This document shows positions 1,174 through 62,124 of a stretch of 64,000 nucleotides of DNA, piece after piece; the first letter of the stretch is position 1, and each line of letters starts with the position of its first letter. This stretch comes from Candidatus Omnitrophota bacterium (GTDB lineage Bacteria > Omnitrophota > Gorgyraeia > Gygaellales > Profunditerraquicolaceae). The stretch spans positions 118 to 64,117 of the forward strand of contig JADHWA010000001.1 in assembly GCA_016783715.1 (NCBI GenBank), written 5' to 3'. The position numbers and the translations under genes were made by a program. Below the pieces are notes generated by a model that was not told the DNA's origin, searched no databases, and saw only the letters and a program-made list of their open reading frames with translations.

Positions 1174-1256
1174 GATTACGGTGATTAAAAATACAGATTG
1201 CAGAGATTATTTATCGACGAAACAATCTCTGTAATCTTATTAAAATCTCTGTAATC
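1174..1256. repeat. GATTACA-box element (trpC to trpF spacer): 2 direct + 2 inverted 14-mers
   Basis: GATTACGGTGATTA, GATTGCAGAGATTA, then AATCTCTGTAATC x2; flanked by the direct repeat ATTAAGTTAAT at 1138 and 1289. Confidence 0.6.
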
Positions 1257-1311
1257 ATAGGCTGGCACGAGTTTCGTGACAGCCTATTAAGTTAATCTAT
1301 AGAAGCTCTAA

Positions 1312-4942: not shown

Positions 4943-5120
4943 TTAATGAGCGCATAACTTAGCGAAGCTAAGTTATAGCGTCCGTTATTTTACTTGTATA
5001 TAAGCGTGCGCGAATTAACCCAGCACTTATTTGGCATGTGCTTAGCATTCAACAAATAAGTGCTGGGCAAATTCCCCCGCACCCAAACAAGTAGTAGTAT
5101 ACACTTGACTGGGTGCGGGG
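4943..5120. repeat. type-A three-hairpin intergenic repeat element (fills the prmC stop to murA start spacer)
   Basis: hairpins ATAACTTAGC-GAA-GCTAAGTTAT, CCCAGCACTTATTTG..CAAATAAGTGCTGGG, CCCCGCACCCA..TGGGTGCGGGG; linker GCGAATTAA; termini AATGAG / TCATTT. Confidence 0.7.
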
Positions 5121-5948
5121 TCATTTGACCTTTTGCGCTATAATGATTCTCTCTATATTATTATAATCTCTAATTATCCTATAAACAGAAAAATCTTTCC
5201 TCTTTTTTAAAATACTCTCTACGGGCCTCCTCTGATTCAACCCGATCTCCAGGGCCAGAAACCCACCTGGCTGGAGATGTTTTAAGGAGCCAGCGATTAT
5301 CCTGCGATAAAAGTCTAATCCATCCCTGCCGCCATCTAAGCCAATACGCGGTTCATAACCAATCTCAGACGCCAAATTATCGATCTCTCCAGAGACAATA
5401 TAAGGCGGATTACTGACAATAATGTCGCATGTCGCATGTCGCATGTCGCATGTCGCAAACAAATCAGATTGGATAAACTCTATCCTTTTATCTACATAGT
5501 GCAAAGAGGCGTTATTTTTGGCTACTTCAAGCGCTTTCTCTGAAATATCAGTAGCGGTTATTGCTACCTGTGGTAATAATTTAGCCAGCGATACCGCAAT
5601 ACATCCCGAACCGGTACCTATCTCTAAGATCCTCCTACGATTAGCGATATGCGATAAGCGATTAGCTAACTTTATTATTGCTTCTACTAAAAGTTCTGTT
5701 TCCGGACGCGGGATAACCACTCCGGGATTTACCTTAAATTCAAAGCCCATAAATTCCTGTTTACCTAATATATACTGCAGGGGCTCACCTTTGGCTCTTC
5801 GTTTTAGAACAGAAGAGATCAAGCGCAATTGACTCTTATTAGGGGCCGGAGGTCTGCGGCTATAGAGGTCAATGCGATTGCACTTTAGAACATCGGTAAA
5901 TAATAATTCAGCTTCGTTCACCCAGCCTTTCCTCCTACTTGTACCCAA
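5121..5948 (-). CDS. prmC: release factor glutamine N5-methyltransferase
   Basis: IVSNPPYI motif, AdoMet-binding GTGSG; start uncertain (TTG as called; the N-terminus lies in a tandem repeat). Confidence 0.8.
   Translation of the reverse strand: MGTSRRKGWVNEAELLFTDVLKCNRIDLYSRRPPAPNKSQLRLISSVLKRRAKGEPLQYILGKQEFMGFEFKVNPGVVIPRPETELLVEAIIKLANRLSHIANRRRILEIGTGSGCIAVSLAKLLPQVAITATDISEKALEVAKNNASLHYVDKRIEFIQSDLFATCDMRHATCDIIVSNPPYIVSGEIDNLASEIGYEPRIGLDGGRDGLDFYRRIIAGSLKHLQPGGFLALEIGLNQRRPVESILKKRKDFSVYRIIRDYNNIERIIIAQKVK
5422..5456. repeat. heptamer microsatellite (ATGTCGC)x5 inside prmC coding sequence
   Basis: perfect 5 copies; encodes ATCDMRHATCD just before NPPY. Confidence 0.85.
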
Positions 5949-6043
5949 CCCTTTGGAAAGGCTGGGTCCTCCTACTTGTACCCAACCCTTTAGAAGGGCT
6001 GGGTCCTCCTATTTGTTTCCCAGTCCTTTATGAAGGGCTGGGT
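5931..6043. repeat. tandem repeat, 3 copies of 37-39 bp (CCTCCTACTTGTACCCAACCCTTTGGAAAGGCTGGGT) spanning the prfA stop and prmC start
   Basis: units at 5931-5967, 5968-6004, 6005-6043; the third unit encodes the prfA C-terminus. Confidence 0.8.
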
Positions 6044-7106
6044 CCTCTGCTGCCTTGATCAGAGCCAGAGAGACCTCATCAAGATCACCATCAAGCACTG
6101 CTTCTAATCGATGTATGGTAAAATTAATCCGATGGTCAGTAACCCGGCGGTCCGGAAAATTATAGGTACGGATCTTCTCGCTGCGATCCCCGGTACCGAT
6201 CTGTGAACGCCTCTCCTGGGAGACCTTCTTAGATTCCTCATGTTGTTTGGCATCCAGTAGGCGGGCGCGCAGTATACGCATTGCCCTAACTTTGTTTTTT
6301 CCCTGAGAACGCTCATCCTGACAGGCTACTACCGTACCGGTGGGGATATAGGTAATTCTCACTGCCGAATCAGTCTTTTGCATATGTTGGCCGCCGGGGC
6401 CGCTGGAGCGGTAAGTATCGATCCTCAGATCTTTGGCATCGATCTTTAAGTCTACTTCCTTAGGCTCAACCAGCACCGCTACCGTGGCCGTAGAGGTATG
6501 TATCCTCCCCTGCGCTTCGGTAACCGGAACACGCTGCACCCGGTGGACACCGCTTTCAAATTTAAGCCTCTTATAGGCATTCGGCCCTTTTACGCTAAAA
6601 GATACGTCTTTAAATCCCCCTGACTCATTGGTACTAGCTGACATCAACTCGACCTTCCACCCTTTATTGGCGGCATATTTTGTATACATCCGGTAAAGAT
6701 CAGCGGCAAATAGACCAGCCTCGTTTCCTCCGGTCCCCTGCCTGATCTCAACGATCAGATCCCTGCCCAAATCCTTGTCTTCTCCGGAAAGCATCTTCTT
6801 CAGGCGCTGCTGGAGGTCAACCCTCTTATTATTTAATTCCTCCGTCTCCTTTCGGGCCAGCTCCAGAAATTCTTCATCATGCTTCTCCTCTAAAACCTTT
6901 GCCAGATCGAGGATCTCGGCCGACACCCGCTGATACTCTAGAAACAACGCTACCGGCCCCCTAAGAGAAGCCATCTCCTTTGCGTATTTATTACACTCCT
7001 CCCTGTTTGAAATCACCTCAGGAGAAACTAAGAGCGCTTCCAGTTCCTGATATCTTTTTTTCATTGTTTCCAGCTGCTCGAACATAATAGTAAAACTCCC
7101 TGGCAC
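6009..7106 (-). CDS. prfA: peptide chain release factor 1
   Basis: GGQ motif ([10 protein letters not shown]), PVT tripeptide region, RF1 length. Confidence 0.9.
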
Positions 7107-14107: not shown

Positions 14108-14119
14108 TTATTTGATTTT

Positions 14120-14147
14120 ATTATACATCCGAATACTGTATGGTCAA
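14120..14147 (-). promoter_or_regulatory. sigma70-like promoter candidate (TTGACC-16-TATAAT) for the TPR gene
   Basis: the -10 lies 12 nt upstream of the ATG; the -35 overlaps the first repeat of the upstream array. Confidence 0.5.
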
Positions 14148-14300
14148 GGAAAATTTACCTCTGGTAACAAGGAATTTTCCTTGATCTTGAGCAACGGAAG
14201 AGCGAAAGATCTCAAGGAAAATCTACACCTACATAGCCCCTCTCTCCTTGATCTCGAGGAGCAAAAGCGACGAGAGATCTCAAGGAAAATTTACCTCTGG
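14142..14300. promoter_or_regulatory. 68-bp periodic repeat array: TCAAGGAAAAT(T/C)TAC at 14144, 14212 and 14280, with inverted partners (CAAGGAATTTTCCTTGA, CCTTGATCTCGAGG)
   Basis: direct repeats exactly 68 bp apart, each with a dyad half-site; sits immediately upstream of and overlapping the -35. Confidence 0.55.
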
Positions 14301-14309
14301 AGACAGAGA

Positions 14310-26249: not shown

Positions 26250-26327
26250 AATTTTTTAGTAGATAGTATGTAGTAGTTAGGGTTTAGGGTGACTTTTTCC
26301 TTCCTACCCCTACATTCTACCTACTAT

Positions 26328-37248: not shown

Positions 37249-37260
37249 TAGAACTCCTTC

Positions 37261-37345
37261 AATGAACACATAACTTAGCGAGTAATAGCGAAGCTAAGTT
37301 ATAAGTGTGAATTGAATCCGCCAGGCTTTGTGGCGGATAAATGTT
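37261..37345. repeat. type-B repeat element (proS 3' end to rimP start)
   Basis: AATGAACACATAACTTAGCG..CGAAGCTAAGTTATAAGTGTGAATTGAATCCGCC..GGCGGATAAATG; the second hairpin is inside proS coding sequence. Confidence 0.65.
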
Positions 37346-38567
37346 TTAATAAATTTTCTTTCTTATCGATAAGTTTTTTGCCTGTGCGGCGCGCCTTTAA
37401 TTCCAGCTTGCCTGTTTCTAAAAAATCTTTCCCGATAATTACCTGATATGTAATACCTGAAAGGTCGGCATCCTTGAATTTGACTCCGGCGCGCTCATCA
37501 CGGTCATCCAGAAGAACACTTACTCCATCCCTCCGGAGCACTCCGTAGGACTCCTCTGCCTGCTTAATAATTAAGCTATTTGTTACATCCAGAGGCAGAA
37601 TTAGCACCTGGTAGGGGCTGACTTCCGGCGGCCAAATGATCCCGTTTTGGTCATGATTCTGCTCGATCGCCGCCGATATTATCCTTGATACCCCGATCCC
37701 GTAACAACCCATTATAATCGGTTTCTTACTTCCTTTGGCGTCTAAGAATTCGGCATTTAGAACACTGCTGTACTTAGTCCCTAATTTAAATATGTGACCG
37801 ACCTCCAGCGTATTAGTCTTTTTTAATTCCCCTTTGCACTTGGTGCATTTATTGGCTTGTTTCTGGTCGCAGGGAAAAGCTGAATTACACCCCGGACAAT
37901 ACATTAGGGCATCCTCTCCGAAACCGGCCGGGACCATGAATTCGTGAGAGACGCTACCCCCCATTACCCCGGGATCTGCTTCTACGCAGAGACAATCCAG
38001 GCCGCATCGGCTGAATATCCTCTTATAAGCCTCTAACATCAAATTGTAGTTTTTATCTAGCCCCTTCTGATCCTGATCAAAGCTATATGCATCCTTCATA
38101 ATAAACTCGCAGCTTCTGACTAAACCAAATCTCGGCCTGATCTCATCGCGGAACTTGGTCTGTATCTGATACAACAGCAGAGGCAGCTGTTTATAGGAAG
38201 AGATATGGCTCTTTACCAACTCGGTAATAACTTCCTCATGGGTAGGCCCCAGGCAAATTTTGCGGCCCTTGCGGTCGGTAAAACGAATCATCACCTCTCC
38301 CATGTCCTTATCGCGCCCACTCTTCTGCCATAACTCCTGAGGCTGCAGCGCAGGAAGCAGAACCTGCGCGGCACCGCTATTATCCATCTCCTCACGGATA
38401 ATCCTAGTGATATTCTCCAGGACCCGCCAGCCCAAAGGTAGGTATGAATAAACTCCTGCCATGAGCATACGGATTAGACCGGAGCGCAGCAAGAGCTTTT
38501 GACTAACCGACTCTGCCTCTTGCGGTGTCTCTCTAAGTGTAGGAATAAATGTCTTTGACCAGTACAT
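37299..38567 (-). CDS. proS: proline--tRNA ligase (short form lacking the INS editing domain; internal C4 zinc-ribbon-like insert)
   Basis: class II aaRS motifs, anticodon-binding C-terminus; CPGC..CTKC insert; the last ~14 codons overlap the repeat element. Confidence 0.85.
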   Translation of the reverse strand: MYWSKTFIPTLRETPQEAESVSQKLLLRSGLIRMLMAGVYSYLPLGWRVLENITRIIREEMDNSGAAQVLLPALQPQELWQKSGRDKDMGEVMIRFTDRKGRKICLGPTHEEVITELVKSHISSYKQLPLLLYQIQTKFRDEIRPRFGLVRSCEFIMKDAYSFDQDQKGLDKNYNLMLEAYKRIFSRCGLDCLCVEADPGVMGGSVSHEFMVPAGFGEDALMYCPGCNSAFPCDQKQANKCTKCKGELKKTNTLEVGHIFKLGTKYSSVLNAEFLDAKGSKKPIIMGCYGIGVSRIISAAIEQNHDQNGIIWPPEVSPYQVLILPLDVTNSLIIKQAEESYGVLRRDGVSVLLDDRDERAGVKFKDADLSGITYQVIIGKDFLETGKLELKARRTGKKLIDKKENLLKHLSATKPGGFNSHL

Positions 38568-38614: not shown

Positions 38615-38676
38615 GATTACACAGATTAGAGTTAGATTACACAGATTAAACCTTTGATGAATTAATCTGTGTAATC
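38615..38676. repeat. GATTACA-box element (between the CpaF-like ATPase and proS)
   Basis: GATTACACAGATTA x2 direct, TAATCTGTGTAATC inverted (14-bp TIR-like). Confidence 0.7.
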
Positions 38677-52088: not shown

Positions 52089-52117
52089 CCTACACTCCTT
52101 TAATGTTCCTGCAAAAA

Positions 52118-52232
52118 ACTCTAAACCCTAAATCCTAAACCCTAAATAAAATCCTAAATCCAAAACTCAAATTATTAAAAATAAAACTTTGGGTTTGTTT
52201 AGAGTTTAGTGTTTCGAACTTAGGATTTAAAA
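52118..52232. repeat. CCCTAAA-type heptamer repeats plus long imperfect inverted repeat between the serC-like gene and serA
   Basis: AACTCTAAACCCTAAATCCTAAACCCTAAAT.. pairs with ..GTTTAGAGTTTAG..TTAGGATTTAAA. Confidence 0.6.
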
Positions 52233-52235
52233 TCA

Positions 52236-53381
52236 TTATTCACCTTGCAAAAAGACTTCTTCGGCGGCTCGGACACCCGCGCCTAACTCGAATTTGTACC
52301 CCATCTGAGTAAGAACCTTCTCTAAGCAGCAGATACCGGCAATAATATCGAGCTCCTCAATAAAACCCATGTGGGCGATACGGAATATCTTTCCTTTAAG
52401 CTGGGCCTGTCCGCCGGCGATAGTTACCCCGTATTGATCGCGCATGGTCTTAACTAACTTTTCACCGTCTATCCCTTCGGGAACCCTTACGGCGGTTACC
52501 GCATCCGAGGCAGCATCGACACTGAGTAATTCCAGCCCTAAGGCCTTCATCGCCGTACGGGTGGCAACTGCCAGCCTCTTATGACGTGTAAAGATATTCT
52601 CTAATCCGTCTTTGCGCATAATCTTCAGGGCTTCCTTTAATGCAATCACCAGAGTAATCGCCGGAGTAAAGGCGGTATCAAACTTATCCAGCGCCTTCTT
52701 GGCGGCCTTTAAATTAAAATAGTATGCAGCAGCCTTATTGCCGTCTATTATCCCCCATGCTTTTTTTGAGACGCTCATAAAGGCAAGCCCTGGAGGAAGC
52801 ATTAATCCTTTTTGTGACCCTGAAACACAGATATCTACACCCCAGGCATCGGTCTTCATATCAATCGCTCCTAATCCGCTGATCGCATCTACGACTAACG
52901 CTGCCTGAGCCCCCTTGGCGATCTTGCCTATAGCCTGGATATCCGTTGTGACACCTGTAGAGGTCTCACAGAGTGTAGTGAACACCGCCTTAATCTTGGG
53001 ATTAGCCTTTAATTTTTTTTCTATCTCTTTGGGATCGACCGCCTGGCCCCACTCTACATCAATAACCTCCGCATTTATTCCGTAGGCCTTGGCAATCTCT
53101 GCCCATCTCTCGCCGAATTTTCCGCCCTGAACTGTTAAAACCGTATCCCCTTTGGAGGCCAGGTTCACAACCGCTGCCTCCATAGCTCCGGTGCCCGAAG
53201 ATGTCAATACAAAACAGTCATTTGCGGTCTGGAAGATAACTTTTAGCCCCTCACAGACCTCTTTGAATATCTCCTGGAAGTCAGGTGTGCGGTGATGGAT
53301 TATCGGCTGTGCCTGCGAGAGAAGCACCTCAGGAGGCAATGGCGTTGGCCCAGGCGTCAATAAATATTTCTTTTTCATCAT
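52236..53381 (-). CDS. class-V aminotransferase (phosphoserine or serine-glyoxylate type), probable SerC function
   Basis: PGPTPLPPEVL N-terminus, PLP-lysine region; adjacent to serA. Confidence 0.65.
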   Translation of the reverse strand: MMKKKYLLTPGPTPLPPEVLLSQAQPIIHHRTPDFQEIFKEVCEGLKVIFQTANDCFVLTSSGTGAMEAAVVNLASKGDTVLTVQGGKFGERWAEIAKAYGINAEVIDVEWGQAVDPKEIEKKLKANPKIKAVFTTLCETSTGVTTDIQAIGKIAKGAQAALVVDAISGLGAIDMKTDAWGVDICVSGSQKGLMLPPGLAFMSVSKKAWGIIDGNKAAAYYFNLKAAKKALDKFDTAFTPAITLVIALKEALKIMRKDGLENIFTRHKRLAVATRTAMKALGLELLSVDAASDAVTAVRVPEGIDGEKLVKTMRDQYGVTIAGGQAQLKGKIFRIAHMGFIEELDIIAGICCLEKVLTQMGYKFELGAGVRAAEEVFLQGE

Positions 53382-53394
53382 TACTATTCTCCTT

Positions 53395-53526
53395 CAATAA
53401 GCTGACCCAGCCCTTGCATGCAAGGGCGGGGTAGCATCTATTGTTTACCAATCTATTAAGCGTCTGCGCATTGAACCCAGCACCCAGTCTAGTATTTATA
53501 TTACTTGTTTGGGTGCGGGGTCATTT
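53395..53526. repeat. type-A repeat element (upstream of the serC-like gene)
   Basis: GTTTACCAATCTATTAAGCGTCTGCGCATTGAACCCAGCAC block about 85% identical to 48582-48625; ends GGGTGCGGGGTCATTT as at 5103-5120. Confidence 0.7.
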
Positions 53527-53555
53527 ACTTCTTCTTTTTCATATGAGCTATTACT

Positions 53556-53655
53556 TAAATGAGCACATCACTTAGCGAGCACTAGCGAAGCTAAGTGATA
53601 AGTGCGAATTAATCCCGGGACTCCATATCTTAATATGCGGAGGCCAGGGATCTTC
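53556..53655. repeat. type-B two-hairpin repeat element flanked by the 31-bp duplicated clpP 3' end
   Basis: TAAATGAGCACATCACTTAGCG..CGAAGCTAAGTGATAAGTGCGAATTAATCCCGGGACTCC..GGAGGCCAGGGATCT; the stem carries the compensatory pair AACT>CACT / AGTT>AGTG. Confidence 0.7.
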
Positions 53656-53662
53656 TCGTATT

Positions 53663-54277
53663 CTACTTCTTTTTCTTCATATGAGCTATTACTTCGTCTA
53701 CCAGCCCATAGGTCTTGGCTTCTTCTGCAGACATAAAATAATCCCTGTCAGTGTCCTTCTGAATCTTCTCCAGAGATTGTCCGGTATGCTGTGCGAGGAT
53801 CTGGTTAATCTTATCTTTCATTTTTAGTATTTCTTTGGCCTGTATCGATATGTCCGATGCCGCCCCCTGTACTCCGCCCCATGGTTGATGAATCATAACC
53901 CGCGAATTCGGCAGGGTATGGCGTTTCCCCTTGGTCCCGGCAGATAAAAGTAATGCCCCCATACTGGCAGCCTGGCCTACGCAGTAGGTAGCTACGTCAC
54001 ATTTTACAAACTGCATAGTATCGTATACCGCAAGACCTGCAGTCACCGAACCGCCGGGGGAATTTATATATATATTGATATCTTTATTTACATCTTCCAT
54101 CTGCAGAAAAAGCATCTGCGCGATAATCAGATTAGCTACGGTATCGTCAATCGGGGTACCGATAAAAACAATCCTGTCTTTTAGCAGGCGTGAATAGATA
54201 TCGTATGCCCGCTCATATCCCCGTGCAGTCTGCTCAATCACCATCGGAACTAAGACCTGCGCTTTTTCGCTACTCAT
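53663..54277 (-). CDS. clpP: ATP-dependent Clp protease proteolytic subunit
   Basis: Ser-His-Asp triad context [11 protein letters not shown]; the track N-terminal extension is rejected and the start is the ATG at 54277 (AGGAGG upstream). Confidence 0.9.
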
Positions 54278-54288
54278 CCTACACCTCC

Positions 54289-54405
54289 TAAATGAGCCCC
54301 GCCCTTTTTTACCAATAAACAAATTATATTTTTTTAAGGTACAAAAGAGCGGGGCGAATTTATCCCGGGCAGCCATTTTTCCTTTCGTCAGCTGCGTGGG
54401 ATCTC
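54289..54405. repeat. type-B two-hairpin repeat element (tig stop to clpP start)
   Basis: TAAATGAGCCCCGCCCTTTT..AAAAGAGCGGGGCGAATTTATCCCGGGCAGCC..GCTGCGTGGGATCTC. Confidence 0.6.
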
Positions 54406-54448
54406 AAATAATATCAATAATAATATTCCTGGCGCCTCGTTAATCTGA

Positions 54449-55327
54449 CTATCCCTGCTGCCAATCAGCTTCCCTAAGCAGGAATTCGATCACCTTCTGC
54501 GGCATCTGGTCATTTACCTCTATATTCTCTTTTTTAGCTATATGTGCTAACACCAAATAATCCCTGACCTGCCTCTTTGCCTCCGGCTCCAGCTGCTGAC
54601 GCAGCTGCTTTTCCTGCTTATCTATCTCCTGGCGCTCCACACCCTTTAAGGCTAGATTTACTTTGGCCTGCCGTAACATCTCATCCTGATGCCTGCTTAC
54701 CATAACCTGAGGGATTTTAAGGTCCAGGTCTTTGGTGAGCCCTTCGATTAGATCCTTCTCTATTCTTTGCCTCTGCTGATTCTCCTTACGGATAAAGATC
54801 TGTCTCTCTAAAGCAGCCTTTAACTCCGCAAGATCAGGATAACCGATGCTTCTGGCGAAGCGGTCATCAATACTGTCGAGTTTCCTGGACTCCTTTAAGG
54901 CATCAAGGTCGCGCTTAAGCTCATCGGCTGCTACCTCAATCTTCTTATAATTGACTCTGATCCCCTTATATTTCTTTAACTGGATCTCCGGCATCACTTC
55001 AACCGTTGCGGTAAACTTTAGCTCATCTCGCTTAATATGTACGTCTGTTACCTGCGGCATCTCGATCACATCAAGCGCTTCAGCTTTTACCACTTCGTCA
55101 TAAACCTCAGGGATCAGATTCTTAAGCACAAGCTCTTGCGCGTGACCAGAGAAGTTTTTCTCTAAAATATCGCGAGGGGCATGCCCGGGCCTAAAACCCG
55201 GGATTTTGGCGCTCTTTGATATCTCGCCAAAGGCCTCTTCGAATTTATTCTTTATACGTTCACCGCTTACTTCGATATCGATCTGGCGTTTTGTACTATC
55301 AAGTTTCTTTACTTCTGACTTTGTCAT
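54449..55327 (-). CDS. tig: trigger factor, natural PPIase-less short form (N and C domains only)
   Basis: ribosome-binding GFRPGHAP signature; C-domain aligns to E. coli TF with the FKBP domain absent. Confidence 0.8.
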   Translation of the reverse strand: MTKSEVKKLDSTKRQIDIEVSGERIKNKFEEAFGEISKSAKIPGFRPGHAPRDILEKNFSGHAQELVLKNLIPEVYDEVVKAEALDVIEMPQVTDVHIKRDELKFTATVEVMPEIQLKKYKGIRVNYKKIEVAADELKRDLDALKESRKLDSIDDRFARSIGYPDLAELKAALERQIFIRKENQQRQRIEKDLIEGLTKDLDLKIPQVMVSRHQDEMLRQAKVNLALKGVERQEIDKQEKQLRQQLEPEAKRQVRDYLVLAHIAKKENIEVNDQMPQKVIEFLLREADWQQG

Positions 55328-55374
55328 TCCTTGTCTCCAGGTTTAATTGTTAGATATAATCAAAGGCTACAGTT

Positions 55375-55448
55375 GATTACACAGATTATAAAATAGATTA
55401 CTCAGATTAAAACTCTTATCTGCGTAATCTGAATTAATCTGTGTAATC
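55375..55448. repeat. GATTACA-box element (lptB to tig spacer)
   Basis: GATTACACAGATTA, GATTACTCAGATTA direct; TATCTGCGTAATC and TAATCTGTGTAATC inverted. Confidence 0.7.
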
Positions 55449-55457
55449 ATATTTAAC

Positions 55458-56180
55458 CTACATTTTAAATCTTTCACCTAGGTAGATTTCTCTGGCCTTG
55501 GGATTGTTGATCAGGTCGTCGGCGCTTCCTGCAATCAGGATCTTTCCCTCGGCGATCAGATAGGCCCGGTCAGTAATCGTCAGGGTCTCTCTGACATTAT
55601 GATCGGTAAGCAGTATCCCCAACCCCCTCTCTTTGAGCTCTTTGATGATCTCCTGAGCCTCATTGACCACGATCGGATCTATTCCTGAGAAAGGTTCATC
55701 GAGGAGGATAAACGACGGATTGGTTACCAGTGCCCGGGTTATCTCTAAACGCCTTCTTTCTCCTCCCGAGAGGGTAAATGCCTTATTCTTCCTTAAATAG
55801 GCGATGTTTAACTCATCTAAAAGGCTCTCCAGCCTGTTCTCTCTCTCCTTCTTGCTGATCGGAAGGGTCTCCAGGATCGCCATGATATTCTCTTCAACGG
55901 TGAGCTTACGAAAGATAGAAGCCTCCTGCGAAAGATATCCGATCCCGTAACGGGCACGCTCATGAATAGAGAGGTTGGTAATATCGCTATTATCGAAAGT
56001 AATCTTCCCGCTTTTAGGCGGTATAACTCCCACGATCATATAGAATGTGGTAGTCTTACCTGCTCCGTTAGGGCCAAGTAGACCTACGATCTCTCCGCGC
56101 TTTACTACTAAATCTACGCCTCTGACTACTTCCCTTCCGCCGTATGCCTTAGAGAGCCCTTTTACTTCGAGTAGATGCAT
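55458..56180 (-). CDS. lptB: LPS export ABC transporter ATP-binding protein
   Basis: GPNGAGKTT Walker A, LSGGERRRLEI signature. Confidence 0.85.
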   Translation of the reverse strand: MHLLEVKGLSKAYGGREVVRGVDLVVKRGEIVGLLGPNGAGKTTTFYMIVGVIPPKSGKITFDNSDITNLSIHERARYGIGYLSQEASIFRKLTVEENIMAILETLPISKKERENRLESLLDELNIAYLRKNKAFTLSGGERRRLEITRALVTNPSFILLDEPFSGIDPIVVNEAQEIIKELKERGLGILLTDHNVRETLTITDRAYLIAEGKILIAGSADDLINNPKAREIYLGERFKM

Positions 56181-56198
56181 ATTGCTCCTTCTATCTGG

Positions 56199-57128
56199 TT
56201 ATTGGCCCATAGCCTGGAAATCATCGGTTGAATAAATCAGCAGCTTCGGCCTTCCTGAAAGGATAACTTTGTTCTCCCCTACCGAATATACCGCCTCTTC
56301 GCTATAAGTTATATTATCGCCGCGCACTGTCTTGACATTATGCCTGGCGATTATCTTATCTATCTGGTTACCCATTATCATCGGGTCGCCGGTTGCATCC
56401 TCAGGCGCCTCCTTGGTGTCTTTAGAACTAAAATACAATTCCATGATTTCGCTATAGATCTGCGAATCCTCTCTGTCTACCTTTACATTATTATTAAAGA
56501 TAGCAACGTTCTTTTGATAGTCGATCTCCAGCGGACCATCGCAGGTAATCACGATCTTCTTAGCTTCGGATGAATCTCCTGCCGCTGCTCCCTCTATCTC
56601 CGGCGTGAACTCAACTAAGACCTCTTCCTCTAAGTTCATCTTGTTAAGGGCCATTTCTCCTCTTGCCCCGCGGCCCCGTGTAAACAAGTTCTGCCTTGTA
56701 ATGTTTACTACATCATCAGTTGAGACCACCGAGTTGCTTCTATCCCAATCCAGGGAATCAGTAGTAAGCTTGGCTCCGCTGGAGGTGGTAATCACCACAT
56801 CCTTCTCGACATGGATTCTACCGTTAGATCGGTCAAAATCACCTTCTTTAGCAGTAAGCTTGACATCCTCCTCTTTGCCGTAAAGGTTACCGGTAAGATC
56901 TTTTAGCTTAACCGTATTCTCGAATATATCGGCGGTTTTGCCGGAGAGATCCCAAGTCTTCTTCCCGCGCTCCCCGTAACCGGCGAGAGAAAAATCTCCG
57001 ATCTGCTGATCTGAATCATCGGCACTTTCTGCCTGCGCAAAAGTTGATCTTACCTCGAATCTGCCGCTAAGACACATTGATAATATCAGAGCAATAAAAA
57101 CAACTAAATTCTTCTTCGGGCTACTCAT
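56199..57128 (-). CDS. LptC/LptA-family (OstA-like) periplasmic LPS transport protein
   Basis: N-terminal anchor then beta-jellyroll-like repeats; sits between kdsC and lptB. Confidence 0.55.
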   Translation of the reverse strand: MSSPKKNLVVFIALILSMCLSGRFEVRSTFAQAESADDSDQQIGDFSLAGYGERGKKTWDLSGKTADIFENTVKLKDLTGNLYGKEEDVKLTAKEGDFDRSNGRIHVEKDVVITTSSGAKLTTDSLDWDRSNSVVSTDDVVNITRQNLFTRGRGARGEMALNKMNLEEEVLVEFTPEIEGAAAGDSSEAKKIVITCDGPLEIDYQKNVAIFNNNVKVDREDSQIYSEIMELYFSSKDTKEAPEDATGDPMIMGNQIDKIIARHNVKTVRGDNITYSEEAVYSVGENKVILSGRPKLLIYSTDDFQAMGQ

Positions 57129-57657
57129 AAGAGCTGATAACTTCCTGCCACTTGCCTTGCGCTTTCAGAATAAGCTCTGCCACTTCACGCACCGCTCCTC
57201 TGCCGCCGTGGCGGATGGTAATATAGGAGGCAGCGCGCTTTATCTCAGGACAGGCATTAAACACTGCTATAGGGAAACCCACTCTTTTCATTATACACAA
57301 ATCCACTAAGTCATCACCGACAAAGCAGATATCTTTAGCGCTAAGATGATACTTTTTTAAGATCTTCTCCAGTGCCAGAGTCTTTGGATGGAGACCAGCA
57401 AAGACCTCTTCAACCCTCATATCCCGGGCTCGCGGCTTAATAGTCCGGGAGCTTTTAGCTGTAACCAATATGGTTTTGACTCCGATCTTGCTTAAAAGAT
57501 ACACCCCTAAACCGTCATGGACGTCAAAGAACTTCAGGTCCCGTCCATGAGAATCATAGATTATCCGGCCGTCGGTGATTACCCCGTCGACATCCAGAAG
57601 CAATAGTTTAATATTCTTTGCCAGAGCTAATACGGATTGTTCGATCGCCAGAGCCAT
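57121..57657 (-). CDS. kdsC: 3-deoxy-D-manno-octulosonate 8-phosphate phosphatase
   Basis: HAD motif LLLLDVDGVITDG. Confidence 0.8.
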   Translation of the reverse strand: MALAIEQSVLALAKNIKLLLLDVDGVITDGRIIYDSHGRDLKFFDVHDGLGVYLLSKIGVKTILVTAKSSRTIKPRARDMRVEEVFAGLHPKTLALEKILKKYHLSAKDICFVGDDLVDLCIMKRVGFPIAVFNACPEIKRAASYITIRHGGRGAVREVAELILKAQGKWQEVISSYE

Positions 57658-57659
57658 TC

Positions 57660-58622
57660 TTAAATTATCCCCGCCTTTAATAGATCTTGAATGTCGAGAA
57701 GCCCCACCGGCTTACCGGATCGGTCCACTACCGGCAGTTCATCGATCTTCTTCTTTCTTAATATCCTCAAGGCGCCGGCAGCCAGCATTCCGGGGTTTAT
57801 GGTCGTGGGGGTCCTGGTCATCACTTCAGAGACCGGCCTTCTGACCAGATTTGGGTCTGTTTTTAGATGACGGCGCAGATCGCCATCAGTAAAGATCCCA
57901 ACCAGCTTCCCTTTATTATCTACGACAGAAGCACTCCCTGAGTGCCCATGAGTAATCTTTACCAACACCTCAGATACTAATTTATTCTTTTTTACTATCG
58001 GATTGTTATGACCTTTACGCATAATATCTTCAACCTTAAGAAGCAGCTTTCTCCCGAGTTGCCCGCCGGGATGATAAAACGCAAAGTCGCGCGCTTTGAA
58101 ACCTTTGGTCTCCAGCAAACAGACTGCCAGGGCATCGGTCATGGCAAGTGTCGCCGTAGTTGAGGCAGTGGGTGCTAGCCCCAGAGGACAGGCTTCCTTC
58201 TTTACCGAAACATCTAAAACTATATCGCTATAATTGGCCAGGTCTGAGTCAGGCGACCCGGTCAGCGCGATAATCTTAGAGCCGATCTGCTTCAAGAGAG
58301 GCAGAAGCTGCTTGATCTCTGAGCCGCTACCGCTGTTTGAGATAACAATAATCACATCATCGGCAGTTACCCTGCCTAAATCACCGTGGATAGCCTCGAC
58401 AGTATGCAAAAATAGACTGGGGGTACCCGTAGAGGCCAGGGTCGCCGAGAACTTCTGGGCGATGATGCCAGTCTTGCCCATCCCGCTAACCACCACCCTG
58501 CCTTTACTCTTTAAAATCAAAGAAAGTGCACCTTCAAAATTCTTCTTTATCCGCGGTTTCAAATCTCTGATCGCCGCCGCTTCAATATCTAAAACCTGTT
58601 TTGCGCGCTTGATAATATTCAT
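57660..58622 (-). CDS. kdsD: arabinose 5-phosphate isomerase (SIS plus tandem CBS)
   Basis: VVSGMGKTG SIS motif, CBS pair at the C-terminus. Confidence 0.85.
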   Translation of the reverse strand: MNIIKRAKQVLDIEAAAIRDLKPRIKKNFEGALSLILKSKGRVVVSGMGKTGIIAQKFSATLASTGTPSLFLHTVEAIHGDLGRVTADDVIIVISNSGSGSEIKQLLPLLKQIGSKIIALTGSPDSDLANYSDIVLDVSVKKEACPLGLAPTASTTATLAMTDALAVCLLETKGFKARDFAFYHPGGQLGRKLLLKVEDIMRKGHNNPIVKKNKLVSEVLVKITHGHSGSASVVDNKGKLVGIFTDGDLRRHLKTDPNLVRRPVSEVMTRTPTTINPGMLAAGALRILRKKKIDELPVVDRSGKPVGLLDIQDLLKAGII

Positions 58623-59431
58623 ATGGCTTGGCTGATTTTTTTGACCTGCTTTAAGAGCTTCTCTAAACTTTTAAGGTTAATCATATTCTGCCCGTCACAG
58701 AGTGCTTTATCCGGATTAGGATGAACCTCTAAAAAAAGCCCCTGACAGCCAAAAGCCGTCGCTGCTCTTGCGAGCCCGGATACAAATTCCCGCTGGCCTC
58801 CGGAAGAGCTCCCCCTGCCACCCGGCAACTGCACGCTATGGGTAGCATCATAGATAACCGGATAGCCGAAATCCTCGATAATCTTTAAGCTGCGCAGGTC
58901 TGAAACCAGATTATTATAACCGAAACAAACCCCCCGCTCGGTGATCATGATCTTCCTGTTTCCAGCTGATTCTATCTTGCGGATGATCGGCAGGATGTCA
59001 CAGGGAGAGAGGAATTGCCCCTTCTTAAGATTAATCACCTTGCCGGTTTTAGCGGCACTTACTACGATATCGGTCTGGCGACAGAGAAATGCCGGTATCT
59101 GAATGATATCCAACACACAAGCTGCATCTTTAATCTCCTTCTGACAGTGGATATCGCTGAGCACAGGCACACCTAATTCCTTCTTGACCTTATAAAGGAC
59201 ATCCAAACCTTTCTTTATCCCCGGCCCGCGGAAGGAATCCCCGGATAAGCGGTTGGCTTTATCAAAACTGGACTTAAATATAAAGGGAACTTTAAGGCGT
59301 CTGGTAATATCATATATCTTCTTTGCGGTCGAGAGAGTCATCGCCTCTGACTCGATTACGCAGGGGCCTGCAATCAGCACCAGAGGAGCATTCTTGCCGA
59401 TCTTTATCTTTCCGACTTTTATCTGGGTCAT
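58619..59431 (-). CDS. kdsA: 2-dehydro-3-deoxyphosphooctonate aldolase
   Basis: LIAGPCVIES, DAK family. Confidence 0.9.
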   Translation of the reverse strand: MTQIKVGKIKIGKNAPLVLIAGPCVIESEAMTLSTAKKIYDITRRLKVPFIFKSSFDKANRLSGDSFRGPGIKKGLDVLYKVKKELGVPVLSDIHCQKEIKDAACVLDIIQIPAFLCRQTDIVVSAAKTGKVINLKKGQFLSPCDILPIIRKIESAGNRKIMITERGVCFGYNNLVSDLRSLKIIEDFGYPVIYDATHSVQLPGGRGSSSGGQREFVSGLARAATAFGCQGLFLEVHPNPDKALCDGQNMINLKSLEKLLKQVKKISQAI

Positions 59432-59432
59432 C

Positions 59433-60173
59433 TTATAATCCTTCCCTGGTCAGAGACTCTCTTACTCTATCCAGGTCTCCGGGGGTATCTACTCCGATGG
59501 TATCGTATTTAGTCTCTACTACTTTGATCCTGAAACCTTCCTCTAATACCCGCAGCTGCTCAAGAGACTCTGTGCCCTCCAAGTTTGAAGGCGGAAGATT
59601 CTTGTAAATAAAAAGAAAATCTTTGGTGTAGGCGTAAATGCCGATATGCTTATAGTAAACAGGCGTTGTAATCTCCGGACCCTCAGCATGATAAGGGATC
59701 TTAGCCCGGGAGAAATATAAGGCAAAGTTATTTTTATCTACTACTACTTTGACCGTATGCGGGTCATCTAAAGCAAAGGAATTGTCTATTCTTTTCATAA
59801 TCGTCGACATCGAAACCTCTTTATCCTCAAGCAAGGCCCGCGCTGCCATATCAATCATCGTCGGATGTACCAGGGGTTCATCGCCCTGGATATTGACTAC
59901 AATCTTAACATCCAGAGGATTAACAACTTCGATTATCCTGTCAGTGCCGCAGGTATGCCCTTTTGCGGTCAGCACGGCTTTGGCGCCGAAACCCCAGGCA
60001 GCCTCTGCTACACGTTCATCATCACAGGCGATAATTACATCATCTAAGATCTGCGACTGCTTGGTGCGCTCCCAGACATGCTGAATCATCGGTTTACCGA
60101 GAATCTCGGCCAAGACTTTGCCTTCAAAGCGACTGGAAGAGTATCTTGCCGGTATTACACCAATAACATCCAT
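59433..60173 (-). CDS. kdsB: 3-deoxy-manno-octulosonate cytidylyltransferase
   Basis: IGVIPARYSSSRFEGK. Confidence 0.9.
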   Translation of the reverse strand: MDVIGVIPARYSSSRFEGKVLAEILGKPMIQHVWERTKQSQILDDVIIACDDERVAEAAWGFGAKAVLTAKGHTCGTDRIIEVVNPLDVKIVVNIQGDEPLVHPTMIDMAARALLEDKEVSMSTIMKRIDNSFALDDPHTVKVVVDKNNFALYFSRAKIPYHAEGPEITTPVYYKHIGIYAYTKDFLFIYKNLPPSNLEGTESLEQLRVLEEGFRIKVVETKYDTIGVDTPGDLDRVRESLTREGL

Positions 60174-60175
60174 AA

Positions 60176-61198
60176 TTATTTAGCTTTAATCGCCGTTAGT
60201 AATTCGCTGCGGCTGGCTGTTGCGGTACCCAGCTTTCCTACTACGATGCCTGCCGCAAGGTTGGCCAGATAAGCTGCCTCCTGCTTCCCTGCGCCGCAGG
60301 CAAGAGCCAGAGAGAAAACTGAGACCACCGTATCCCCCGCACCGGAAACATCATAGACCTCCTGTGCCATGGTGGGAATATGAATAGATTTATTGCTCTT
60401 CTTCTCTAACAGAAGCATACCTTCCTCGCCTAGAGTAACCAGAAGCGATTCTAATCCCAGATAATTAATTATCTCTTTTGCTGCCCGATTAATATCCCTG
60501 GCTGTAGAGAGCCGGTCATTATCCGCCCGGAAAGAATTACTCCTGTCTTTGATCTTCAAATTCCTTACCGCGTTCTCCAGCTCCTTGCGGTTAGGAGTAA
60601 TCGCGGTGACCCCGCGATAAAATTGGAAGTGATCCTCTTTGGGGTCTACGATGATAATCTTCTTGGCGCCTGTGGCCAGGGCAGTTATCTCTTTAAGCAG
60701 CTGGGCATTGACTACACCCTTACCGTAATCTTCGATTATCAGAGAATCGAAATTTTTTATGCTCTTTTTTACAAAATCGATGATCTTTCGGTTTAGTGCA
60801 GCAGAAAGAGATCTTGTATGCTCCCAGTCTACCCTTACCACCTGCTGATGCCCGGCAATAATCCGAGTCTTTAGCGTTGTTGGTCGTCCGGCTTCACTAA
60901 AGATACCGTTTGTTCTAATCTTATTCTTACGCAGCTGAGCAACTAAAGATGCAGCCTTTTCGTCTCTGCCGATAACCCCTGCGAGAGAAACGTTCCCTCC
61001 GAGCGACCGGATATTATAAGCGACGTTTGCCGCACCTCCGGGGACGAAGGTGCTTTTGTTAGCCCAGACTATCGGTACCGGCGCTTCCGGAGAGATCCTT
61101 TCTACATTACCGATAATATACTCATCAAGGATCAAATCTCCGATTACCAGAACCTTTGCTTTATTAAATTTACGAACAATTCTTTCTAGATTCTTCAT
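60176..61198 (-). CDS. hldE: D-glycero-beta-D-manno-heptose 7-phosphate kinase (HldE/RfaE domain I only)
   Basis: ribokinase-like, VLVIGDLILDEY..PGGAANVA; no adenylyltransferase domain fused. Confidence 0.8.
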   Translation of the reverse strand: MKNLERIVRKFNKAKVLVIGDLILDEYIIGNVERISPEAPVPIVWANKSTFVPGGAANVAYNIRSLGGNVSLAGVIGRDEKAASLVAQLRKNKIRTNGIFSEAGRPTTLKTRIIAGHQQVVRVDWEHTRSLSAALNRKIIDFVKKSIKNFDSLIIEDYGKGVVNAQLLKEITALATGAKKIIIVDPKEDHFQFYRGVTAITPNRKELENAVRNLKIKDRSNSFRADNDRLSTARDINRAAKEIINYLGLESLLVTLGEEGMLLLEKKSNKSIHIPTMAQEVYDVSGAGDTVVSVFSLALACGAGKQEAAYLANLAAGIVVGKLGTATASRSELLTAIKAK

Positions 61199-62124
61199 AT
61201 CCTCTCGATGATTGCCTGCGCCAATAAGGGCAACATAATCTCATGGTGGCCGACGATATAATAACCCCTGCCCAAGGGAGCCACCGGCCGCCGCACGATA
61301 TTCTCTGCCGGACGATAATGATAGATCATATCGAAATTTGCCGCGGTGAAATCCTTTACCGGAAACCCCAGATTGCGCGCCAGATTCAATGCCTTTAAAA
61401 ATACCTCCGGCAGGATTACCGCTGAGCCGAAATTTAATACCACGCCGCCCTTGTTAAGTTTGATTACATTTTCGGTCAAGATCTTAAAATCTCTAAGACT
61501 CCCCTCGCCGGTCAAGCTGGCATCAAAAGACGGATGCTGATGAATAATATCAGTGCCGATTCCCACATGGACAGTGACCGGTACCTTAAATTTAGCGGCA
61601 TTATAAAGGAGGCTCAGGCTCTTATGGGGGAGTTTTGCCGTGGAGATCCTTGAGGCAACCGCATATCCCAGGCCTAAACCATCTTCGACCCCATCTCTGG
61701 CTGCAGTATTGATAAAGACAGCGGTTTCCTTACCCATCCCGAACTTACCATGTTTCAGGTTCCCAGCCACATCTTCGGATGTCTTACCCGCAAAGGCAAG
61801 CTCGAAATCATGGATAATCCCAGCACCATTTAAGGCGATGCAGGTGATTACTTTCTTCTTAATCAGCTCTATGAGTAGCGGATTTAAACCGCATTTGATC
61901 ACATGCGCCCCGCACATAAAGATCACTGATTTCTTCTTCCTGCGGGCAGCGACTATCGCATCTACAATCGCGCGTATCTCCTTTGTTTTTAGGATGTTTG
62001 GTAAAGAATTATAGAATTTCGCAAAACTACTCCTTCTAACAGGTAGTTTAGCAAAATCACTCACTTTTACCTTGCTGTAGCGGGACTTTACCGAATATGT
62101 CTTGACTCTGTTAATATTGATCAT
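61195..62124 (-). CDS. deoxyhypusine-synthase-like (DHS-fold) protein of unknown function heading the LPS-core operon
   Basis: IFMCGAHVIKCGL..NGAGIIHDFE pattern resembles the DHS family; weak; start set to the ATG at 62124. Confidence 0.4.
   Translation of the reverse strand: MININRVKTYSVKSRYSKVKVSDFAKLPVRRSSFAKFYNSLPNILKTKEIRAIVDAIVAARRKKKSVIFMCGAHVIKCGLNPLLIELIKKKVITCIALNGAGIIHDFELAFAGKTSEDVAGNLKHGKFGMGKETAVFINTAARDGVEDGLGLGYAVASRISTAKLPHKSLSLLYNAAKFKVPVTVHVGIGTDIIHQHPSFDASLTGEGSLRDFKILTENVIKLNKGGVVLNFGSAVILPEVFLKALNLARNLGFPVKDFTAANFDMIYHYRPAENIVRRPVAPLGRGYYIVGHHEIMLPLLAQAIIERI

What the first reader, a model, noticed from the sequence alone, without database searches (positions are those of the whole stretch)
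53526..53694. 31-bp duplication of the clpP 3' end flanking a 100-bp repeat element: insertion footprint or att-site remnant
The real clpP end is TACTTCTTTTTCTTCATATGAGCTATTACTT at 53662-53694. It encodes VIAHMKKKK then TAG. It is repeated 106 bp downstream at 53526-53556 as TACTTCTTCTTTTTCATATGAGCTATTACTT.

The downstream copy still reads in frame as VIAHMKKKK then TAA, so it differs only by synonymous changes and a different stop codon. The type-B element at 53556-53655 lies exactly between the two copies.

This pattern is expected in two cases. One is insertion into a gene 3' end that carried a replacement 3' end. The other is site-specific integration at an att site overlapping the clpP terminus followed by deletion of the cargo. 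Either way it is direct evidence that these elements are, or were, mobile and target gene termini.
Basis: seen in the sequence. Interest (0 to 1): 0.75.

Follow-up and report, generated by a model that had tools for sequence, protein, structure and literature searches.

The report
Displaced clpP end beside hairpin repeat
The last 31 bases of the clpP gene really are repeated 138 bases downstream, and the repeat is a recombination or insertion scar left when a small, gene-less two-hairpin repeat module was added behind clpP in an uncultured Omnitrophota bacterium; it is not the remnant of a phage or island attachment site.

Summary
Two 31-bp direct copies (53664-53694 and 53526-53556, 29/31 identical) flank a 107-bp two-hairpin module (B, 53557-53663). 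Four independent assemblies carry the arrangement.

Close relatives (ClpP 94-99% identical) supply the requested alleles:
- Five have a single clpP end and no B.
- Five contigs, representing two distinct alleles, have a B-like module right after the clpP stop, with no duplication.

The window stacks both spacer types. The distal copy keeps the native context (TAA-ATGA...), so it is the displaced original clpP end.

clpP matches its nearest relative over 283 nt (1 mismatch), then shows 11 mismatches in the last 58 nt next to B. This suggests B arrived with a replacement gene end. The right joint sits at an AAG microhomology.

No integrase or transposase lies in the 64 kb, so the att-site reading is not supported.

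B belongs to a widespread Omnitrophota family of hairpin modules. These sit between stop codons and ribosome-binding sites. In other metagenome contigs some hairpins carry small GIY-YIG nuclease genes.

The closest known parallel is endonuclease-ORF-mediated C-terminal replacement in fungal mitochondria. The duplication is of moderate interest; the element family deserves follow-up.

The parts
53663..54277 (-). clpP coding sequence (204 aa, ends VIAHMKKKK, stop TAG at 53663-53665)
   Evidence: ORF list. The exact protein was found in public assemblies with Pfam CLP_protease. Homologues were found.
53664..53694 (-). Proximal 31-bp copy: the functional clpP terminus (codons V I A H M K K K K plus TA of the stop)
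53663..53720 (-). Divergent terminal tract of clpP (candidate imported replacement 3' end). It has 11/58 mismatches to the nearest relative L088, mostly synonymous, against 1/283 in the preceding 283 nt.
   Evidence: A Fisher test run with the conservative count of 10/58 versus 1/283 gave p about 1e-7.
53557..53663 (-). B module, 107 nt with no ORF. On the gene strand it reads: G of the TAG stop, then AATACGAGAA, hairpin 1 (53612-53652), linker TAATTCGC (53604-53611), hairpin 2 (53563-53605), and the terminus GCTCATTT (53557-53564).
   Evidence: Folding gave z = -4.6 and -4.9 on the two strands. The left half is 57/59 identical to the module at the same site in L086. Hairpin 2 is 84% identical to 37257-37320.
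53526..53556 (-). Distal 31-bp copy: the displaced, non-functional clpP terminus. It is followed by the A that completes TAA and by ATGAC, the same junction as in single-copy alleles.
53396..53525 (-). Truncated A-type hairpin array. It comprises the left terminus AATGAC (53520-53525), a hairpin (53476-53520), the conserved core GGGTTCAATGCGCAGACGCT...GATGCTA (53432-53478), hairpin 3 (53405-53431) and the right terminus CAGCTTATT (53396-53404).
   Evidence: It shares its architecture with 56 metagenome copies.
53376..53395 (-). Ribosome-binding site GAAGGAG and the start (ATGATG) of the downstream aminotransferase gene (52236-53381). The array abuts this site.
   Evidence: Synteny is conserved in about 20 Omnitrophota genomes.

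Best explanation
The distal 31-mer is the displaced original end of clpP.

The ancestral spacer was short. In this clade it became occupied by modular hairpin arrays that run from the stop codon to the ribosome-binding site of the next gene.

Proposed event: in an allele of the 'alpha' type (clpP-TAA-ATGA..A array..SD), a B-type two-hairpin module arrived by recombination or double-strand-break repair from a 'beta'-type allele. In beta alleles B directly follows a TAG stop.
- The left joint was a homologous exchange inside clpP, between about 53721 and 53762. This brought in a replacement clpP terminus.
- The right joint was illegitimate. It joined the natural right end of B (GCTCATTT-AAG, which normally abuts AAGGAG) to the AAG 31 bp before the resident stop codon.
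- The resident terminus therefore survives as a silent copy, and clpP stays intact.

What is shown: the duplication, the empty and alternative alleles, the mosaic identity, and the absence of a recombinase.

What is inferred: the order of events, and the link to endonuclease-driven gene conversion. That link is suggested because hairpins of the same family carry GIY-YIG nuclease genes elsewhere.
For: 1. Single-copy, B-less alleles occur in L088, L085, L083, L084 and L093. B-only alleles without duplication occur in L086, L087, L091, L092 and L089.
2. The distal copy is followed by TAA-ATGA, exactly as in alpha alleles. The proximal copy is followed by TAG plus B, as in beta alleles.
3. The left half of B is 57/59 identical to the L086 module at the same position.
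4. Identity is mosaic. tig is 98.5% identical to L086; the aminotransferase and serA genes are 98.4% identical to L088/L085 and about 90% to L086. clpP has 1/283 mismatches to L088 up to 53721, then 11/58 (mostly synonymous) to the stop. Seven of these lie upstream of the repeat, which a simple target duplication does not predict.
5. Beta and hybrid populations co-occur in the same samples: L086 with L090 in ERZ24794671, and L092 with L094 in ERZ24794666.
6. The junction shows an AAG microhomology. The clpP end also resembles the translation-start region that normally follows B (D8).
7. The same genome shows other local duplications at gene-end/SD junctions: the prfA end is present three times at 5930-6050, and there are repeats at 14144-14305.
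8. The hairpin family is linked to GIY-YIG nuclease ORFs.
9. Endonuclease-ORF insertions that bring a replacement C-terminus and leave the native one downstream are documented in PMC3630166.
Against: - Within the 31 bp, the distal copy is no closer to the nearest alpha relative than the proximal one. Each differs from L088 at 3 sites, and both share GCTCAT. The 'native versus imported' test is therefore not met inside the repeat itself; gene conversion between the copies or an unsampled recipient must be invoked.
- The imported tract matches no sampled donor. L089 shares about six of its derived states but has private changes.
- B contains no endonuclease gene, and none was found in the window.
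- X-element-X geometry is also what a target-site duplication gives.
- 5 of 56 family members show 6-13-bp flanking duplications of the ribosome-binding site.
Confidence: 0.5

Rival explanations
1. True target-site duplication. B is a non-autonomous mobile element that inserted at the clpP stop codon through staggered cleavage, or target-primed copying, 31 bp apart. Gap repair then duplicated the target.
For: - The geometry is exactly X-B-X, with both repeat ends coinciding with the ends of B.
- Both copies share the lineage-specific GCTCAT.
- 5 of 56 related elements carry flanking duplications of a locus-specific ribosome-binding site: L098 13 bp, L148 9 bp, L132 8 bp.
- B looks like a 5'-truncated form of the full element.
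Against: - Other B-like copies have no such flank: 37258-37330 and the L086 and L089 alleles.
- The family's flanking repeats are 6-13 bp and variable, not 31 bp.
- The foreign-looking tract extends 27 nt beyond the repeat.
- The same left half of B sits at the same site in beta alleles, so B was not a de novo arrival.
- There is no transposase in 64 kb.
Confidence: 0.2
2. Intragenomic unequal crossing-over, or microhomology-mediated tandem duplication, of the unit [clpP last 31 bp + spacer array]. This was followed by rapid replacement of the hairpin interiors, so that the two arrays no longer look alike.
For: - AAG microhomology is present at both unit boundaries (GACG-AAG-TAAT and CATTT-AAG / ATTG-AAG-GAG).
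- Both arrays share the plan hairpin-TYAATKCGC-hairpin-GCTYATT.
- Tandem duplications of a gene end plus SD occur at prfA (37 bp, three copies) and at 14144-14305.
- Hairpin interiors are swapped even between near-identical strains, as in the window versus L090.
Against: - The two arrays share no alignable sequence beyond the linkers.
- It does not explain the divergent 58-nt clpP tract.
- It does not explain why the left half of B equals the beta-allele module.
Confidence: 0.2
3. Remnant of site-specific integration. A tyrosine- or serine-recombinase element integrated at an att site overlapping the clpP terminus. Its cargo was later deleted, leaving attL and attR 107 bp apart.
For: Direct repeats of att-like length flank the insert and restore the gene end.
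Against: - No integrase, excisionase or transposase domain was found in any ORF of the 64-kb window.
- About 25 Omnitrophota clpP loci show no island downstream of clpP.
- The 107 bp are homologous to resident spacer modules: L086 at the same site, and 37257-37320 in the same genome.
- There are no matches in viral contigs.
Confidence: 0.03
4. The distal copy is kept for a function, for example a five-codon leader ORF (ATG AAA AAG AAG AAG TAA) or a regulatory mimic of the clpP end or of the aminotransferase start region.
For: The copy contains an intact ATG...TAA mini-ORF. It is 77% similar to the start region of the next gene (D8).
Against: - No ribosome-binding site precedes it.
- It is absent from all sampled sister lineages.
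- No promoter- or terminator-like signal lies in the spacer.
- There is no Rfam match.
Confidence: 0.05

Closest known systems
Endonuclease-ORF ('mORF') mediated C-terminal replacement in fungal mitochondrial genes (Allomyces macrogynus atp6; Glomus atp6, atp9, cox2, nad3), as described in PMC3630166
   Same: An inserted segment supplies an in-frame replacement 3' end, and the native 3' end is left as an unused duplicate downstream. The inserted flank is more diverged than the rest of the gene. The mobile agents there are LAGLIDADG or GIY-YIG endonucleases, and the hairpin family here is associated with GIY-YIG ORFs in other loci.
   Different: - There is no ORF between the copies here, only a 107-bp hairpin module.
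- This is a bacterial chromosome, not mtDNA.
- The native remnant is only 31 bp.
- The test 'native copy closer to relatives' is not met within the repeat.
- Nuclease activity and target are untested.
attL/attR direct repeats of integrative elements, and cis-mobilisable remnants (CIMEs)
   Same: Direct repeats of a few tens of bp overlap a gene 3' end and preserve the reading frame.
   Different: There is no recombinase and no cargo. The intervening DNA is a resident repeat module, and no related genome has an island at this site.
MITEs and REP/BIME-type intergenic palindromic repeats (own knowledge; reviews PMC10969869, PMC2229807 listed)
   Same: These are short, ORF-less, structured, multi-copy intergenic elements built as mosaics of hairpins and linkers. 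They show presence/absence polymorphism between strains.
   Different: - Orientation is strict and placement precise: the left end sits at or in the stop codon, and the right end abuts the ribosome-binding site.
- Linkers are conserved while hairpin interiors are interchangeable.
- There is no fixed-length target duplication.
- No RAYT or DDE transposase was seen; the associated ORFs are GIY-YIG.
Homology-facilitated illegitimate recombination and microhomology-mediated duplication (own knowledge; PMC2621351 listed)
   Same: One joint lies in homology and the other at a 3-bp microhomology. The result is an insertion with a local duplication.
   Different: This is a process rather than an element family. 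It does not explain why the module family sits at gene boundaries.

Membership tests
Integrase att-site duplication / CIME remnant | Direct repeats (att core) flanking the inserted DNA | tested here: met
   31 bp, 29/31 identical, flanking 107 bp
Integrase att-site duplication / CIME remnant | Site-specific recombinase gene in or next to the element | tested here: not met
   No integrase, resolvase or transposase Pfam domain was found in the roughly 49 window ORFs scanned directly. The remaining genes, about 53,000-62,000, carry only housekeeping Pfam annotations on the matching contig L001. The rest of the genome was not available.
Integrase att-site duplication / CIME remnant | Intervening DNA is foreign cargo, and relatives carry larger islands at the same att | tested here: not met
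   B is homologous to the resident spacer module of L086 and to 37257-37320. About 25 Omnitrophota clpP loci have no island.
Transposon/MITE insertion with target-site duplication | Duplication of fixed length at every insertion of the family | tested here: not met
   Other B-like copies have none. Among full elements, 5 of 56 have 6-13 bp and the rest have none detectable.
Transposon/MITE insertion with target-site duplication | Terminal inverted repeats and multiple copies | tested here: inconclusive
   Full arrays end in AATGAG...CTCATT. B itself has only the right terminus. There are many copies.
Endonuclease-ORF C-terminal replacement (Allomyces atp6 type) | Gene 3' end duplicated downstream of the insert, with the proximal copy in frame and used | tested here: met
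Endonuclease-ORF C-terminal replacement (Allomyces atp6 type) | Inserted terminus more diverged from close relatives than the native, displaced terminus | tested here: inconclusive
   There are 11/58 mismatches in the proximal tract against 1/283 upstream. Within the 31 bp, however, both copies differ from L088 at 3 sites. The distal copy keeps the native TAA-ATGA context.
Endonuclease-ORF C-terminal replacement (Allomyces atp6 type) | Homing-endonuclease ORF between the two termini | tested here: not met
   B is 107 nt without an ORF. GIY-YIG ORFs occur only in related hairpins of other contigs.
REP/BIME | Imperfect palindromes in many intergenic copies, arranged as mosaics | tested here: met
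REP/BIME | Associated RAYT (Y1 transposase) and its conserved recognition tetranucleotide | not tested
None was found in the window.
Diversity-generating retroelement (template/variable repeat) | Adenine-specific mismatches between repeats and a nearby reverse transcriptase | tested here: not met
   The two differences are a G-to-A and an A-to-G in Lys codons. There is no RT domain in the window.
Microhomology-mediated tandem duplication | Head-to-tail repeat units with microhomology at the junction | tested here: inconclusive
   AAG is present at the junction. However, only the 31 bp and the linker architecture are repeated, not the arrays themselves.

The most novel reading that the evidence does not exclude
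The hairpin modules (A and B types) may be miniature, ORF-less derivatives of an undescribed Omnitrophota family of inverted-repeat-flanked GIY-YIG endonuclease elements. On this reading the elements home to the stop-codon/ribosome-binding-site junction between genes and spread by break-induced gene conversion that co-converts gene termini. The clpP duplication would then be a bacterial-chromosome counterpart of the mitochondrial 'mORF' C-terminal replacement, made by a non-autonomous copy.
Probability: 0.35. Interest if true: 0.8.

Novelty: new variant of a known kind. Interest (0 to 1): 0.5.

Why it matters
The duplication is a dated, allele-resolved scar. It shows that the intergenic hairpin modules of this uncultured lineage are gained, lost and exchanged between co-occurring strains, and that they can rewrite the last codons of an essential gene without breaking it.

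Following the scar exposed a stereotyped element of about 200 nt:
- at least 56 copies in metagenomes;
- always ending at a ribosome-binding site;
- interchangeable hairpins, with strong compensatory variation in the one hairpin tested (hp3);
- some hairpins carrying GIY-YIG nuclease genes.

If these are endonuclease-driven elements that target gene boundaries, they would be a new model for how homing-type elements colonise bacterial chromosomes. They would also show how such elements shape operon spacers, stop codons and C-terminal tails.

Tried and rejected
- **Rfam, whole window and 12 canonical element loci:** no family other than tRNAs.
- **tRNA/tmRNA scan:** none, so there is no tRNA-type att site.
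- **Metagenome scan with the clpP-end pattern:** 0 hits, because that collection does not hold these genomes.
- **Viral contigs with the element core:** 0 hits.
- **Promoter and terminator scan of the spacer:** nothing above the shuffled expectation. B is therefore not an obvious promoter or intrinsic terminator.
- **Diversity-generating retroelement reading:** rejected, because the mismatches are not adenine-specific and there is no RT.
- **Chance or assembly artefact:** rejected, given 0 matches in shuffles and four assemblies.
- **Using the 31-bp sequences to decide which copy is native:** tried, but the signal is too weak. Both copies differ from L088 at 3 sites, and the distal copy equals the L089 end except at one base and the stop.
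- **Literature searches for Omnitrophota repeats or GIY-YIG hairpin elements:** no description found in the held library.

Full report
**Observation**

The region was read on both strands. clpP is the minus-strand ORF 53663..54277 (MSSEK...VIAHMKKKK, stop TAG).
- The 31-mer at 53664-53694 is its last nine codons plus parts of the flanking Glu and stop codons.
- It recurs at 53526-53556 with 29/31 identity. No such match occurs in shuffled sequence and there is no third copy.
- The two differences are synonymous Lys-codon changes, and the stops are TAG (proximal) and TAA (distal).
- The 107 nt in between (53557-53663) fold into two strong hairpins (z about -4.6 to -4.9).
- They belong to a repeat family with other copies in the window (37257-37320 at 84%; 4942; 54291).
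- The same arrangement is present in independent assemblies from other samples (L001, L094; L090 as far as it reaches).

**Organism and ancestral state**

The window is from an uncultured Candidatus Omnitrophota bacterium. All genes run on the minus strand and are housekeeping genes. No integrase, transposase or reverse transcriptase domain was found in the window ORFs scanned directly, and the genes around 53,000-62,000 carry only housekeeping Pfam families on the matching contig L001.

In about 20 more distant Omnitrophota genomes, clpP is followed by the same aminotransferase gene after only 15-60 bp, with no repeat. The 281-bp spacer of the window is therefore an expansion.

**Allelic series in close relatives**

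Proteins 94-99% identical to this ClpP all end in VIAHMKKKK. Their contigs give three spacer types:
- **Alpha alleles (L088, L085, L083, L084, L093).** There is one clpP end with stop TAA running straight into ATGAGG. A hairpin array of about 200 bp follows and ends in CTGCTTATT / GTGCTCATTT, directly abutting the ribosome-binding site of the aminotransferase gene. These are the empty sites for B.
- **Beta alleles (L086, L087, L091, L092; L089).** There is one clpP end with stop TAG. A B-like module then abuts the ribosome-binding site (CTCATTT-AAGGAG). In L086 its left half is 57/59 identical to B of the window.
- **The window allele.** It has B, then the 31-bp copy, then a truncated alpha array. 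It is therefore a stack of the two types. The distal copy sits in the native alpha context (TAA-ATGA). The junction on its other side is B's natural right end joined at AAG (GCTCATTT-AAG|TAATAGC).

**Mosaic identity**
- tig is 98.5% identical to the beta strain L086.
- The aminotransferase and serA genes are 98.4% identical to the alpha strains L088/L085, but about 90% to L086.
- Within clpP the window has one mismatch to L088 in 283 nt (54003-53721). It then has 11 in the last 58 nt: seven in 53702-53720, three inside the repeat, and the stop. A Fisher test run with the conservative count of 10/58 versus 1/283 gave p about 1e-7.
- These changes are mostly synonymous. About six of them are shared with the beta allele L089.
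- Beta and hybrid populations co-occur in the same samples.

This is what is expected if B came in with a replacement clpP terminus through a homologous exchange on the left and an illegitimate joint on the right. It is not what a simple staggered-cut target duplication predicts, because the foreign-looking tract extends beyond the repeat.

One weakness remains. Inside the 31 bp the distal copy is no closer to L088 than the proximal one, and both share GCTCAT. Either conversion between the copies or an unsampled recipient has to be assumed.

**The element family**

Spacers in the window are full of hairpins with conserved linkers. On the gene strand these read AATGAG-hairpin-CGAATT and AATTCG-hairpin-CTCATT.
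- Units at the left of an array start at or inside the upstream stop codon. The prmC TGA lies in AAATGAC. The last eight codons and the stop of the hisS-like gene are element-encoded.
- Units at the right end abut the ribosome-binding site.
- The tig-clpP spacer also has empty alleles (L089, L083, L084) and filled alleles. The window and L090 differ there only by a swapped hairpin interior.
- Hairpin 2 of B differs from its L086 counterpart by four double compensatory changes (read from the sequences).

A metagenome scan with the 19-nt core of the A array returned 73 loci. Of these, 56 are copies of one stereotyped element:

(GAAGG)TCAAATGAAGCC-hp1-GGCTGAATTTGACCC-hp2-GGGTTCAATTCGCAGACGCT-...-GCTA-hp3-TCTGCTCATT|GAAGGAGG-N5-9-ATG

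- All 56 copies have the same orientation as the downstream gene.
- Hairpin 3 shows compensatory double changes at 11 of 16 pairs in 50 copies.
- In 5 of 56 copies the left end is preceded by a copy of the locus-specific ribosome-binding site, 6-13 bp long.
- No Rfam family matches, there are no viral hits, and no description was found in the held literature.

B corresponds to the right-hand two-hairpin part of this architecture.

**GIY-YIG link**

In seven loci the loop of the middle hairpin contains an ORF of about 75-100 aa: L137, L164, L168, L105, L111, L162 and L131. Remnants occur in L154 and L147.
- The ORFs have a GIY-YIG nuclease domain (Pfam PF01541, E 1e-11 to 1e-15).
- The same stems occur without an ORF in many other copies, including the CCCCGCACCCAG-type hairpins of the window.
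- Another inverted-repeat-flanked GIY-YIG gene (L166) has a miniature counterpart in L117.
- The protein family has 112 members, and the only source names given are Candidatus Omnitrophica/Omnitrophota.

The hairpins therefore look like miniature derivatives of small nuclease-bearing elements. Nuclease activity, target and any role in mobility are untested. No GIY-YIG gene lies in the window.

**Comparison with known systems**

The closest documented parallel is the fungal mitochondrial 'mobile ORF' case. There, a LAGLIDADG or GIY-YIG endonuclease ORF inserts at a gene's 3' end together with a foreign C-terminus, and the native C-terminus remains downstream (PMC3630166, read).
- Shared features: the duplicated terminus, the in-frame replacement, and the diverged inserted flank.
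- Missing here: an ORF between the copies.
- The native-versus-inserted identity test is inconclusive.

For the integrase att/CIME model, the recombinase, foreign-cargo and island features were tested and not met.

For the classical MITE/TSD model, the fixed-length duplication feature is not met.

Unequal crossing-over or microhomology-mediated tandem duplication remains a serious rival. The same genome has tandem copies of the prfA end (5930-6050) and of a promoter flank (14144-14305).

**Verdict**

The duplication is real. It is best read as the scar of a recombinational insertion of a hairpin module with a replacement clpP end (confidence about 0.5).

Rivals:
- true target duplication, about 0.2;
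- intragenomic unequal exchange, about 0.2;
- retained functional copy (mini-ORF or regulatory mimic), about 0.05;
- att-site remnant, about 0.03.

The duplication itself is of moderate interest. The element family it points to is the more novel result and deserves a dedicated study.

Noticed in passing
window 5930-6050: The last 37 bp or so of prfA, with its stop and an SD-like GGAGG, are present three times in tandem (period 37-39 bp, 87-95% identity). Each unit contains a hairpin. This is a second case of a gene 3' end copied downstream.
   Followed up: partly
window 14108-14309: A strong promoter-like site (TTGACC-17-TATAAT) is preceded by two hairpin units. Each unit carries a copy of the promoter's upstream flank (26-nt direct repeat 14144-14169 / 14280-14305, spacing 136 bp; 24-nt repeat at spacing 68).
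   Followed up: no
window 37258-37330 and 5070-5125: Hairpin elements overlap gene ends. The last eight codons and the stop of the hisS-like ORF (37299..38567) lie inside an element. The TGA stop of prmC (5121-5123) lies in the AAATGAC terminus of a hairpin unit.
   Followed up: partly
L137, L164, L168, L105, L111, L162, L131, L166 (metagenome loci): Small GIY-YIG nuclease ORFs (75-110 aa) sit inside the loop of inverted-repeat hairpins of the SD-abutting element. ORF-less hairpins with the same stems are common. The protein family (112 members) is named only from Candidatus Omnitrophica/Omnitrophota.
   Followed up: partly
window 54278-54448 versus L090, L089, L083, L084: The tig-clpP spacer has empty alleles (11-nt spacer, stop TAA) and filled alleles (stop TAG plus a module ending CTCATTT|AGGAGG). 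The window and L090 are otherwise identical but carry different hairpin interiors at one position.
   Followed up: partly
window 1224-1259, 38615-38648, 55375-55409: A separate short repeat, GATTACACAGATTA / AATCTGTGTAATC, occurs in direct and inverted copies in three spacers.
   Followed up: no
window 52116-52165 and 26250-26327: Runs resembling telomere repeats (CCCTAAA / TTTAGGG-like units) lie in two intergenic spacers.
   Followed up: no
window 54449-55327: Trigger factor is only 292 aa (Trigger_N plus Trigger_C, with no PPIase domain). The same length is annotated in L001, L002, L083 and L089.
   Followed up: no
L011 4604-4770 (Candidatus Undivivens industriae): A more distant Omnitrophota genome also has hairpins downstream of clpP, but with different conserved linkers (TTCACTCGTGYG...AAGGAG). 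This suggests analogous module families in other genera.
   Followed up: no
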